Shown: piece by piece, positions 1 through 64,000 of the stretch
Position numbering within the stretch: position 1 is the first letter of the stretch
Layout: each line of letters starts with the position of its first letter
Assembly: GCA_963921275.4 (NCBI GenBank)
Contig: OZ001293.3
Coordinates: forward strand, 6,815,067-6,879,066
DNA length: 64,000 bases
Direction of reading: 5' to 3'
Origin: an uncultured Hormoscilla sp.
GTDB taxonomy: Bacteria; Cyanobacteriota; Cyanobacteriia; Cyanobacteriales; Desertifilaceae
Program-made: the position numbers

Positions 1-3000
1 TGGCCACGGATGCAGGGGAGAAAACCATTACGGCCAAAGATATCATCCTGGCACCGGGTTCGGTCCCCTGGGTACCTCCAGGGATTGAAATAGATGGCAA
101 AACAGTCTTTACTAGCGATGATGCCTTGAAGCTAGACTGGCTACCACCTTGGGTGGCGATTATCGGCAGCGGCTATATTGGCTTGGAGTTTTCCGACATC
201 TACACCGCCTTAGGCTGCGAAATTACCATGATCGAAGCCCTAGACCAGCTGATGCCAGCTTTTGACCCGGATATTGCTAAGTTGGCCAAGCGCGTGCTGA
301 TCGATCCTCGTGATATAGAAACTAAGGTGGGCATGCTGGCGAAAAAGGTGACTCCGGGTTCGCCAGTAGTAATTGAACTGGCAGATGCGAAAACGGAAGA
401 AGTGGTAGAGGTTCTAGAAGTAGATGCTTGTCTGGTGGCGACGGGACGCATCCCCGTGGCTAAAAACATGGGGTTGGAATTATTAGGTGTGGAACTGGAC
501 CGCAAAGGCTTTATTCCCGTTAATGGCAAAATGGCAGTGTTGGCGGACGGCGAACCCGTACCCCATTTGTGGGCCATTGGCGACGCAACTGGTAAGATGA
601 TGCTGGCCCACGCGGCATCGGCCCAAGGCATTACGGTGGTGGAAAATGTTTGCAGGCGCGAACGCTGCGCGAAAAATCAGGAAGTAGACTATAGCAGTAT
701 CCCCGCAGCAGCCTTTACTCATCCAGAAATTAGCTATGTGGGTATGACTGAACCTCAAGCCAAGGAATTGGGTGCAGTCGTGGGATTTGAAGTGGCCTCA
801 GTACGGACCTACTTTAAGGGTAACTCTAAGGCGATCGCCTCTGGGGAAACGGACGGGATAGCCAAAGTTATCTATCGTCAAGATACGGGAAAACTGCTGG
901 GAGTCCACATTCTGGGCGCCCACGCCTCGGATCTGATCCACGAAGCAGCAGCGGCGATCGCCTCACGTCAGTCAGTTAACACCTTGGGCTATCTAGTTCA
1001 CGCCCATCCCACCCTCTCAGAAGTCCTGGACGATGCCTATAAACGGGCCATGTCTCATGCGTAAGACGGGCATCTCGCCTGTTCTACGTCAACAGCATCC
1101 CCCTTTTAGCAATTGACAATTAACAATTAGCAATTGACAATTAACAATGAGTAATTTATGCAAATCCGTCGCCGTCCCCCCAGCCCGCCTGTAGATCTAC
1201 TCAACCTGCGCTATGAGGTAACCTTGCCTGATAGCGCCCCCCAGAATATCTTGGAGGAAATTGTCTGGCACAAAGAAAAGGAAATTGACCAGAGGCGCTC
1301 AAAGTTACCTTTGAGTGACCTGAAGCGTCAGGTAGAGAAAGCGCCAGCATCCCGAGACTTTGTCGGGGCCCTGGGTCGAGGCAAAACTTCCCTTCGGCGT
1401 CTTCCGCACGCTCTTGTCCTGAAGGACGCGGCGTGCTACAGACACCCCGCCCTCATCGCTGAGGTGAAAAAGGCTTCTCCTTCTAAAGGGGTGATCCGTG
1501 AGGACTTCGATCCAGTGGCGATCGCCCGTTCCTATCAGCAAGGGGGTGCAACTTGCCTGTCGGTGCTCACGGATGCAAAATACTTTCAAGGCACCTGGGA
1601 AAACCTGGGTCAGGTCAGAAATGCTGTAGACTTGCCCTTGTTATGTAAGGAGTTTATCATCTATCCTTACCAAATATATCTAGCCCGGATCTATGGCGCG
1701 GATGCGGTACTGTTAATAGCGGCCATTCTGGGCGATCGGGATCTGCAATACTTTGTGAAGATCGCGAGGGTATTGCAGATGACTCCCTTGATAGAAGTTC
1801 ACTCTCTAGCAGAACTAGACCGGGTTTTAGCTCTGAAAGACGTTACCATAGTCGGGATTAATAATCGCAACTTGGAAGATTTTTCCGTAGACTTGCAAAC
1901 AACTTGCCAGTTGCTAGAGGCCCGGGGGCAGATTTTGCAAGCACGGGGTATATTAGTAGTGAGTGAGTCGGGACTCCATACTCCAGCTGACCTGAAACTG
2001 GTTGGCGATGCGGGTGCTGCTGCTGTATTGATTGGCGAATCTCTGGTGAAACAGCCCGAACCAGGACAGGCGATCGGGCATTTGTTTGACTAAGGGAAAG
2101 GACAGGCAAGATGTCTGTCCGACAAAATAACAGGCATCTAGTCTATCAACCGCAAATTTTTAGGAGATTTACATCTATGGAGCCTCTTCCCCTTCCTTCT
2201 CACATTCACTACGAACTGCTACTGCGACTTTTAGAACGGCAGACATGGTTAGCTGTTAGTAACCAGTCTCCGCAGCAGGAACAAGTCCATCAGTTGATTA
2301 TTACCCTGCGAAAAGCCCTGGCCCAACAGAGACAACTGGAAGCAAGTTGCCACCAGGCTAACTTGCCCATTGACTATCGCTGGTCTTTGAATGAAGTTAC
2401 CACAGTTCCTGGTTGATGTTATCTGATATTTTTGGAAATCTGATAACTGCAAACTGCGTATACGCAGTTCGCAGTTATGGATCTACTGAGGTTTGTAGTG
2501 AGGACGGAAGTCCTCACTACAAACCACGCTGCGCGAAAAATCAGAAAAATCAGAACGTAATTCATTTGGGTTTGAGGCAATTTGTTGACTAGAAATCAGA
2601 GAGGAGCACCTGTCGAACTCACGTCCATCAGGCGATTCCCCGCAGGGGAAGTCCGCAGCCAAAGGTTTGCCCATTTGCAGCACTAGGGATGTCCCAAAAG
2701 CAGCACATCAGCATAAAGCAGAGAAATGAAAAACAACAATCGTCAACAAATTAGTCGCATTATGATCGCAGCAAAAGAGATTCCCCCAAAGTTAACCCCT
2801 GAAGAGTATTTCGTTTGGGAAGAAAAACAATTGGAAAAACATGAATATATAGATGGACAAGTCTATGCCATGAGCGGCGGCAGCGTTAATCATGGCCGCA
2901 TTGCCATCCGATTTACCGCCATGTTCGACGCTCATTTAGAGGGTAGCGGTTGTATGACTGGCAACTCTGACATCAAGGTTAATATTGTTGAAACCAATAA

Positions 3001-63000: not shown

Positions 63001-64000
63001 TCTCTGGTGCAGTTGTGCCCAGCTCAAATGCGATCGGGCTGCACTTTTACCCCATCTGGGAAGCAGCATCCTTGGATGAGTGGCTGTACAACGGTGGTCC
63101 TTACCAGCTGATCGTCTTCCACTTCTTCATTGGCATCTGCTGCTACATGGGTCGTCAGTGGGAACTCAGCTATCGTTTGGGTATGCGTCCTTGGATCTGT
63201 GTTGCATACAGCGCCCCAGTGAGCGCCGCCACCGCCGTGTTCCTGATCTACCCGATCGGGCAAGGTTCCTTCTCTGATGGTATGCCTTTAGGGATCTCTG
63301 GCACATTCAACTTCATGTTTGTGTTCCAAGCTGAGCACAACATCCTCATGCACCCCTTCCACATGCTGGGTGTAGCTGGCGTGTTCGGCGGAGCGCTGTT
63401 CTCCGCCATGCATGGTTCTCTGGTGACTTCTTCTCTGGTGCGTGAAACCACAGAAGTAGAATCTCAAAACTACGGTTACAAGTTCGGTCAAGAGGAAGAA
63501 ACCTACAACATCGTAGCAGCTCACGGCTACTTCGGTCGTTTGATCTTCCAATATGCTTCTTTCAACAACAGCCGTTCCTTGCACTTCTTCTTGGGTGCCT
63601 GGCCGGTGATCGGTATCTGGTTCACCGCCCTAGGGGTGAGCACGATGGCCTTCAACCTGAACGGTTTCAACTTCAACCAGTCCATTATCGACTCACAAGG
63701 TCGGGTAATCGGCACCTGGGCAGATGTCCTGAACCGTGCTAACCTGGGGATGGAAGTAATGCACGAGCGGAATGCTCATAACTTCCCCTTAGACTTGGCA
63801 TCCGGTGAAGCTACTCCCGTTGCCTTGACCGCTCCGGCGATCGATGGCTAATATTAGCTAAAACAAAAAGCGCTCTCTTGATGGGGGCGCTTTTTGTTTG
63901 GCTGTTGGTCAGGCAGCGGCGAGAGCATAAGCTCTGCTTATATGAGGTATAACTACAAAAAAAAACTTAACAGGGGTTTACAAAACGCAATCAAGTTAGC

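What a model noticed while it worked through the whole genome (the two positions that open the first line are those of the whole stretch)
1..64000. Record proliferation of group II introns: ~250 ORF-less copies of two 835/871-nt families
The chromosome carries 363 group II intron domain V/VI hits. That is about four times the 88 hits of the same Rfam model, and more than twice the roughly 150 introns, reported for the previous record holder Arthrospira platensis (101 in a later survey). About 250 are complete ORF-less introns of 790-1000 nt. Family A has 139 copies (about 871 nt, ends ..CCCCATCC, homing site CTTAnnGAGTCT|A). Family B has 82 copies (about 835 nt, ends ..CCCCGACT, homing site ..AGTGYA|A). 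There are also minor families. Only 35 RT/maturase ORFs of >=450 aa remain. The introns interrupt conserved genes such as eno, prfC, glsF, nrdJ (which also holds an intein), a spkB-like kinase and an alpha-2-macroglobulin hom [...]
Evidence so far: rna.tsv has 363 Intron_gpII rows, all on C1; 305 have no RT gene within 1.2 kb. There are 86 distinct D5/D6 sequences, the commonest with 116, 39, 35 and 21 identical copies. The 5' motif GTGCGATTCGTTCTAG (<=3 mismatches) matches 439 times, and 258 paired ends lie 700-1000 nt apart. Family counts and target-site logos are in calls 44 and 45. In-silico excision restores an open frame in 8 of 10 interrupted genes tested, always with the family-specific 3' end. 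Of 250 introns, 46 lie in sense and 36 in antisense within open frames of >=120 codons. Enolase is split by an intron at about 1800238-1801137, glsF by one at 5580677-5581511, and nrdJ by another. Four further copies of the composite uni The finding spans contig positions 1 to 6879066; this window holds only 6815067 to 6879066 of it. [...]
(Added by a program. Inside this text positions count along the whole contig: contig position 6,815,067 is position 1 of the stretch shown here. "Call 12" and the like, gene names such as g00115 and contig names such as C1 are that model's own, and its searches are not shown. The text may have been shortened before it was handed on; [...] marks where a part breaks off. 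The agent that wrote the report below was given it as the finding of a first reader that could run no searches.)

Follow-up and report, generated by a model that had tools for sequence, protein, structure and literature searches.

The report
Record swarm of helper-dependent introns
This cyanobacterial chromosome carries over 300 complete protein-less group II introns, some inside single-copy housekeeping genes, which likely spread and splice using the enzyme of a distantly related intron lineage, making it a likely natural model of how introns flood a genome.

Summary
The finding is real, and undercounted. The chromosome has 477 domain-V-like hits (none in the reversed sequence). 373 belong to a protein-less lineage (L1), of which 318 are complete 0.65-1.1 kb introns at 290 distinct sites. 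Families A (139 copies, 61 identical) and B (75) are recent bursts. 86 hits belong to a reverse-transcriptase lineage (L2; 14 intact proteins), only ~64% like L1 in domain I. No RT-bearing L1 intron was found. Empty paralogous sites (75 of 75) fix the L1 end four bases after CCCC, mostly non-AY (ATCC, GACT, GACC). Target sites pair with the introns' guide loops. Nine housekeeping genes are split in sense by copies with intact domain V, none by family A; eno, zwf and nrdJ are single-copy. One pattern gives 372 hits here and at most 181 in two overlapping 400-genome samples, mostly drafts; three congeners have 131-181. Closest known: T. elongatus TeI3/TeI4 (28 introns, 85-100% alike). Splicing and the helper are inferred; no RNA data were usable. 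The scan reported this swarm earlier from other windows of this genome, and smaller ORF-less families on other DNA.

The parts
7168..8002 (-). ORF-less L1 group II intron, family B (835 nt, GTGCG...CCCCGACT); contig C1:6822234-6823068
   Evidence: open frame 355|675 codons across the site only with the 4-nt end; domain V intact
7169..7246 (-). Domains V and VI of the family B intron (RF00029, 47 bits)
8003..9045 (-). 5' exon: type ISP restriction-modification gene (Mrr_cat_2, ResIII/DEAD); intron in sense; IBS1 pairs poorly (about 3 of 6, read by eye)
5139..7167 (-). 3' exon of the type ISP gene (Helicase_C, ISP_coupler, N6_Mtase); its C-terminal domain lies in two further separate ORFs (4287-5111, 3379-4212), so the gene looks broken elsewhere too
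55923..56750 (-). ORF-less L1 group II intron of a 4-copy minor family (828 nt, ends CCCCGACC); contig C1:6870989-6871816; antisense inside a cadherin-repeat gene
   Evidence: empty paralogous repeats give the same end
55924..56002 (-). Domains V and VI of the second intron (RF00029, 41.9 bits)
54708..57719 (+). Cadherin/RTX Ca-binding repeat gene pieces on either side of the antisense intron
1..64000 (.). The window holds 2 of the 318 complete L1 introns; the rest, the 86 L2 (RT lineage) hits and the split housekeeping genes lie elsewhere on C1 (contig coordinates in the full report)

Best explanation
These are group II introns with no protein gene of their own that sit at about 290 different sites matching their RNA guide loops, and they likely spread by retrohoming and splice with a reverse transcriptase/maturase borrowed from a distantly related, protein-coding intron lineage in the same chromosome. 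Shown: copy number, near-identity within families A and B, precise insertion with a conserved end four bases after CCCC, guide-target complementarity, no RT in any L1 copy examined, and intact RT-maturase-HNH proteins only in L2. Inferred: L2 proteins bind L1 RNA (probably at a domain IV remnant), assist lariat splicing and copy the reverse-spliced RNA into DNA; changed guide loops open new target sets; insertion into L2 and into each other supplies safe sites; copies in essential genes persist because they splice out. Weak selection in a sponge symbiont may allow the load (inference).
For: 373 L1 vs 86 L2 domain V hits. 370 of 373 L1 hits have no RT fragment within 600 nt; the other 3 follow an L2 3' end. 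74 of 86 L2 hits do have one. 14 intact ~590-aa IEPs with RVT_N/RVT_1/GIIM/HNH (2 of them scanned); best solved relative 6ME0 chain C, E 2.5e-109. Family A: 61 of 139 identical, about 1 substitution per copy, 121 distinct flanks. IBS1 pairs >=5 of 6 with the EBS1 loop in 64% of 225 distinct sites vs 7% for random hexamers. Empty paralogous sites give the same end in 75 of 75 testable introns, of 318; congeners' eno alleles join exactly at the site. DV/DVI consensus has 8 of 26 pairs with compensatory changes across 13 sequences. Single-copy eno, zwf and nrdJ are split in sense (no class I RNR small subunit). All 9 housekeeping hosts carry an intact DV. Outside family A, sense exceeds antisense 29:12 at >=60 codons each side, p=0.012. 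31 L1 copies sit inside L2 sequence. Short-read contigs show roughly hundredfold depth on shared intron parts. Precedent for trans mobilisation: PMC2882425; trans maturase in Trichodesmium as described in PMC12584367.
Against: No RNA evidence: the runs laid look like DNA and show no spliced form. L1 and L2 domain I are only 60-67% identical (shuffle baseline 55%), against 85-100% in T. elongatus, so recognition in trans is not obvious. Protein-level ORF remnants in L1 domain IV were not significant (tblastn E>3). The predicted branch-A-to-3' spacer is 8 nt, against the usual 6-7; most ends are not AY; and the J2/3 base read by eye stays A in C-ending families. Family A has no sense bias (23:17, p=0.43), and the non-A bias weakens at >=100 codons (15:7, p=0.13). 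43 of 318 copies have an altered or mispaired DV, including multi-copy families. Insertions in open frames are below background in both orientations (56 and 40 of 318 vs 23% per strand).
Confidence: 0.74

Rival explanations
1. L1 introns self-splice, or use host RNA chaperones, without a bound maturase, and use L2 reverse transcriptase only loosely for the cDNA step (a SINE-like, non-cognate relation).
For: Large L1-L2 distance; domain IV remnants differ widely among L1 families; an independent self-splicing ORF-less intron, C.te.I1, is described in PMC4424553.
Against: Precise, guide-matched insertion at hundreds of double-stranded DNA sites normally needs an IEP-bound particle (established knowledge of retrohoming); family A keeps a short stretch resembling the L2 ORF start (by eye).
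Confidence: 0.12
2. The bursts were driven by a cognate RT-bearing L1 intron that has since been lost or was not assembled; the copies are now immobile.
For: A closely related helper is the rule in known cases; the assembly is 96.7% complete.
Against: 61 identical A copies imply very recent activity. Of 158 L1-type domain I matches in fetched loci (G000 loci included, some overlapping), 145 have DV within 600 nt, 6 have it 0.9-1.5 kb away and 7 run off the locus. The listed full-length IEPs of four congeners are 63-77% identical to L2, apart from one ~40% match, and 150 weaker matches were not listed. Congeners show their own separate bursts.
Confidence: 0.08
3. Copy number comes mainly from DNA-level duplication, hitchhiking in other elements, gene conversion or assembly artefact, not from retrohoming.
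For: 28 of 318 copies share flanks with another copy; 54 sit inside other introns; mispaired-DV families would be hard to mobilise by their own catalysis.
Against: 290 distinct flank pairs, exact ends and no target duplication; guide-target match; short-read depth supports high copy number and the eno junctions (possibly the source sample).
Confidence: 0.05

Closest known systems
Thermosynechococcus elongatus TeI3 (ORF-less) / TeI4 (IEP) IIB1 introns; Mohr, Ghanem & Lambowitz 2010, PMC2882425 (read: outline, first part of Results, first part of Discussion)
   Same: ORF-less introns proliferating by retrohoming after EBS divergence, twintrons inside helper ORFs, driver IEPs in trans.
   Different: 28 introns (17 ORF-less) vs 318 complete ORF-less here. 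There, all introns are 85-100% alike; here the helper candidates are ~64% alike in domain I. Non-AY ends and a predicted 8-nt spacer. The organism is not known to be a thermophile, although heat was proposed there as a key factor.
Arthrospira platensis NIES-39 (PMC2853384, passages; PMC8919778, passages)
   Same: Filamentous cyanobacterium with the highest published load: at least 150 introns (79 without RT), 88 RF00029 hits; 101 in the 2022 survey.
   Different: About 2-4 times fewer, about half RT-bearing; different counting pipelines.
Trichodesmium erythraeum ORF-less introns in dnaN and RIR with a general maturase (PMC4649490, first part read; PMC12584367, passages; Meng 2005 not read)
   Same: ORF-less introns in housekeeping genes, splicing in vivo, dependence on a trans maturase, twintron.
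   Different: 17 introns shown to splice (10 ORF-less); the helper is described as structurally related; no burst of hundreds of near-identical copies in the passages read.
Group II introns with shifted 3' ends: B.a.I2, B.c.I4 (PMC9294222, section 3 read; PMC4424553, passages)
   Same: The 3' splice site departs from the 6/7-nt spacer and AY consensus.
   Different: Those are few introns with alternative sites or 53-56-nt extensions; here a one-base-longer, sequence-variable end is fixed in a whole mobile lineage.

Membership tests
Group II intron (broad class) | 5' GUGYG start | tested here: met
   GTGCG start in the family representatives; exon junction confirmed by empty alleles
Group II intron (broad class) | Domain V hairpin with AGC triad, bulge and GNRA loop | tested here: met
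   RF00029 above gathering score; 275 of 318 complete L1 copies intact, 43 altered; covariation
Group II intron (broad class) | Domain VI with bulged branch adenosine | tested here: met
   Consensus stem with an unpaired GA before the CCC(C) helix and compensatory changes; use of this A as branch point is predicted only
Group II intron (broad class) | EBS1/EBS2 pairing with the 5' exon | tested here: met
   EBS1: 64% vs 7%; EBS2 TAAG/CTTA and TCTA/TAGA read from logos
Group II intron (broad class) | Full domain I-IV secondary structure | not tested
   Only aligned and read by eye; no full structural model built
Group II intron (broad class) | Lariat splicing | not testable with these tools
   No RNA run of this organism was usable
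Canonical IIB1/IIB2 introns | AY 3' end and 6-7-nt branch-A-to-3' spacer | tested here: not met
   Ends ATCC 147, GACT 106, GACC 57, TAAT 44 of 373; 8-nt predicted spacer fixed by 75 of 75 empty sites; norm from PMC9294222. L1 is not filed as canonical IIB.
Canonical IIB1/IIB2 introns | EBS3-IBS3 pair | tested here: inconclusive
   Candidate EBS3 T in 273 copies, +1 A in 207 of them; it did not covary in +1=T families and the motif position is unverified
TeI3-type ORF-less derivatives of a resident IEP intron | Closely related (85-100%) IEP-bearing sibling in the genome | tested here: not met
   Nearest RT lineage 60-67% in domain I, patchy blastn only; works like TeI3, but is not filed as such
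TeI3-type ORF-less derivatives of a resident IEP intron | Families with diverged EBS and matching targets; twintrons | tested here: met
TeI3-type ORF-less derivatives of a resident IEP intron | Mobilisation by the IEP in trans | not testable with these tools
   Needs a mobility assay
L2 lineage as CL-class mobile introns | RT + maturase + HNH ORF inside the intron, AY end, 7-nt spacer | tested here: met
   ends TTAGTTTAAY
L2 lineage as CL-class mobile introns | Phylogenetic placement in CL1 or CL2 | not tested
   Only the best PDB match (6ME0); CL2/IIB2 is suggested by the spacer and host, and the label is partly recalled

The most novel reading that the evidence does not exclude
A bacterium has reached an early spliceosome-like state: a whole lineage of hundreds of introns with no cognate protein, relaxed 3' ends and essential host genes is served by a general maturase from a distant lineage, and copies with a broken catalytic domain V still spread because domain V is supplied in trans by other introns.
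Probability: 0.15. Interest if true: 0.9.

Novelty: new variant of a known kind. Interest (0 to 1): 0.62.

Why it matters
Models of spliceosome origin assume that group II introns flooded a genome, lost their proteins and came to depend on shared splicing factors. Bacterial examples have been small (28 in T. elongatus), and a review calls bacterial ORF-less introns rare (PMC4424553). Here about 4% of a chromosome is complete ORF-less introns (283 kb in 325 paired elements), in a genus whose members show separate bursts with empty alleles for comparison. This makes three questions testable in E. coli or in vitro: how far IEP specificity can relax, how a ribozyme picks a non-AY 3' end, and whether crippled introns can be rescued in trans. 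It also matters for annotation: housekeeping genes in such genomes look broken or missing.

Tried and rejected
Exact Rfam census: not possible, only 150 of 867 candidates were scored. Canonical AY end one base shorter: rejected by frame tests (offset 4 opens 22/17/11/3 sense frames vs 3/5/0/1 at offset 3) and by 75 of 75 empty sites. My first reading, that family 2 lost the AGC triad, was wrong: the triad is kept and the stem mispaired in 15 of 19 copies (my notebook says 14). The DV parser was faulty and was redone. Strand-biased (cDNA deamination) mutation: not supported, G>A 56 vs C>T 46, p=0.62. RT-bearing L1 sibling: none in plasmids (no match), metagenome contigs (0 matches to one exact pattern) or 400 order genomes, where only the 4 congeners match at length. 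IEP remnants in L1 domain IV: not significant. A test for empty alleles between samples at recent A/B sites was not obtained, so ongoing mobility remains open. TIGR02504 found no NrdJ; TIGR02505 did; nrdD was not searched. Literature: 'Hormoscilla'+'intron' 0 papers; two genus papers have no occurrence of 'intron' or 'reverse transcriptase' in the main text (supplements not read); a 2022-onward search for higher counts gave one unrelated paper; one search was uninformative; one search gave 0. Simon et al. 2008 and Meng et al. 2005 were not read; they may describe similar ends.

Full report
Observation. The window holds two Rfam RF00029 hits, belonging to complete introns at 7168-8002(-) and 55923-56750(-). 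On the 6.88-Mb contig C1, a profile built from domain V finds 477 hits, with none in the reversed sequence and none on the six small contigs; a regex finds 380 and a fixed pattern 372. The claimed 363 Rfam rows could not be reproduced because only 150 of 867 candidates were scored, but the figure is in range. The 5' motif gives 440 hits. Pairing ends gives 325 elements of 600-1150 nt in 53 clusters, totalling 283 kb.

Two lineages. By their domain VI ends, 373 hits are L1 (…CTCGACCCC+4 nt), 86 are L2 (…TTAGTTTAAY) and 18 were unclassified. 370 of 373 L1 hits have no RT fragment within 600 nt, and the other three follow an L2 3' end; 74 of 86 L2 hits have one. 318 complete elements are L1. L2 has 27 full-length 2.34-2.43 kb copies, 75 maturase-domain matches genome-wide (a few from other classes) and 14 intact ~590-aa proteins. 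The two scanned carry RT, maturase and HNH domains and match PDB 6ME0 best (that this is the T. elongatus intron protein is recalled). L1 and L2 share only short blastn patches. Domain I identity is 60-67% between lineages (shuffle 55%), 70-86% from A or B to other L1 families, and 76-100% within L2.

Recent, targeted spread. Family A has 139 copies, 61 identical, about one substitution per copy; family B has 75. 290 of 318 flank pairs are distinct. Targets follow GAGTCT|A and AGTGYA|A, complementary to loops AGACTC and TGCACT. Over 225 distinct sites, 64% pair at >=5 of 6 positions vs 7% for random hexamers; copies whose loop did not parse were left out. 54 of 318 copies lie inside other introns, 31 of them in L2 sequence. 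In four runs of one study, possibly the source material, shared intron segments are roughly a hundredfold deeper than the flanks, and contigs cross both eno junctions; the tool warns that such depth is no exact copy number.

The 3' end. Frame tests favour an end 1, 4 or 7 bases after CCCC. All 75 introns with an empty paralogous site give 4: 35 ATCC, 22 GACT, 11 GACC, 4 TAAT and 3 others. Congeners' eno alleles agree. Most L1 copies therefore do not end in AY, and the predicted branch A lies 8 nt from the end, against 6-7 in PMC9294222 (section 3 read); L2 has the usual 7. Domains V and VI covary (8 of 26 pairs, 13 sequences).

Host genes. At >=60 open codons on each side, 56 of 318 copies are in sense and 40 in antisense frames, both below the 23% background. 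I annotated 21 sense hosts with NCBIfam, and 20 antisense plus 25 sense exon pieces with Pfam; this is part, not all, of the list. Housekeeping hosts are eno, prfC, iscA (TAAT ends), glsF, metH, recJ, ectB (GACT), and zwf and nrdJ (GACC); all are in sense with intact domain V. eno, zwf and the B12-dependent RNR are single-copy, no class I small subunit was found, and nrdJ also has an intein. Antisense hosts were signalling, repeat, Uma2, RT and one PRK-like gene. The choice of 'housekeeping' is post hoc. Sense bias is seen outside family A (29:12, p=0.012; 15:7 at >=100 codons, p=0.13) but not in family A (23:17), so family A may splice poorly or is too young to be filtered. 43 of 318 copies have an altered domain V; 15 of 19 in one family share a mispaired stem at 14 distinct, partly guide-matched sites. 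This is unexplained.

Distribution. With one pattern, G000 has 372 hits. Among 400 genomes of the order the next are G004 181, G028 176 (another family, 3.8 Mb, one contig), G002 155, G003 131 and G060 78; the congener G001 has 2. A second, overlapping sample of 400 across the phylum reaches at most 31. Most are drafts that collapse repeats, the pattern suits CL-like domain V, and other phyla were not searched. L1 itself matches at length only in the genus. Named records with the L1 domain V pattern are mostly Hormoscilla MAGs (27 of 31 loci), so G000 is likely of that sponge-symbiont genus. Family A has a 92% relative in few copies in G004, and congeners have their own expanded families. No RT-bearing L1 intron was seen.

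Mechanism. Best reading (0.74): L1 introns splice and retrohome using L2 proteins in trans, retarget by guide change, and are tolerated in essential genes by splicing. Copy number, ends, targeting and RT distribution are shown; splicing, branch point and helper identity are inferred. Rivals are protein-free splicing with loose RT use (0.12), a lost cognate helper (0.08), and DNA-level duplication or artefact (0.05).

Comparison. It works like T. elongatus TeI3/TeI4 (PMC2882425; outline, first parts of Results and Discussion read) but fails that system's close-sibling feature and the canonical IIB end. Published maxima are 150/88 (PMC2853384, passages) and 101 (PMC8919778, passages). Trichodesmium provides the trans-maturase and housekeeping precedent (PMC4649490, first part; PMC12584367, passages). 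PMC4424553 (passages) calls bacterial ORF-less introns rare and nearly always accompanied by closely related IEP introns. No paper in the library joins Hormoscilla and intron, and two genus papers do not mention introns in the main text (supplements unread). Earlier scan notes on this genome reached similar readings; they are not independent support.

Verdict. Real, larger than first reported, and a new variant of a known kind. Interest 0.62, for the scale, the distant helper, the odd ends and the load in essential genes, held down by a clear precedent and the lack of RNA evidence.

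Noticed in passing
G000:C1:1775128-1777817 (-) (L012): The only tmRNA gene found is split inside its tag frame by a ~2.3-kb group II intron of another class; its 600-aa protein is 44% like L2 proteins and lacks Y.DD. Four congeners have intact tmRNA. A search listing for group II intron + tmRNA + ssrA showed no obvious precedent (titles only). The protein is also a candidate general maturase.
   Followed up: partly
G028 (3.8 Mb, one contig) and G060 (4.7 Mb, one contig), another family: 176 and 78 domain V matches; G028's density (about 46 per Mb) is close to G000's (about 53 per Mb). 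Their introns are not L1; one locus examined is RT-bearing.
   Followed up: partly
G000:C1, family 2 (e.g. 506007-506928), also clusters 4, 10, 14, 15: Multi-copy families with a mispaired domain V at different target sites; the copies of family 2 in zwf and nrdJ have the intact form.
   Followed up: partly
G004:C14:9456-11903: The congener's enolase is split at a different site by an RT-bearing L2-type intron.
   Followed up: partly
G000:C1, e.g. 1326652, 4741955, 5180973, 6029677, 6410359: Family A inserts into its own domain IV, and families A and B sit at fixed places in repeated ~3.87-kb L2 composite units.
   Followed up: partly
older L1/L2 copies across C1: Recurrent multi-base swaps (CTC>GGA and its reverse complement, among others) and a short palindromic insert of about 28 nt recur in different intron families; cause unknown.
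   Followed up: no
G000:C3 (31,420 nt): GC content 17.6%, against 42-49% for the other contigs; possibly contamination.
   Followed up: no
G000:C1:2339135-2339969: Cluster of nine tRNA genes on one strand.
   Followed up: no
window 3379-9045 (-) and 51744-57719 (+): Both window host genes (type ISP RM enzyme; cadherin/RTX-repeat protein) are also broken at sites away from the introns.
   Followed up: partly
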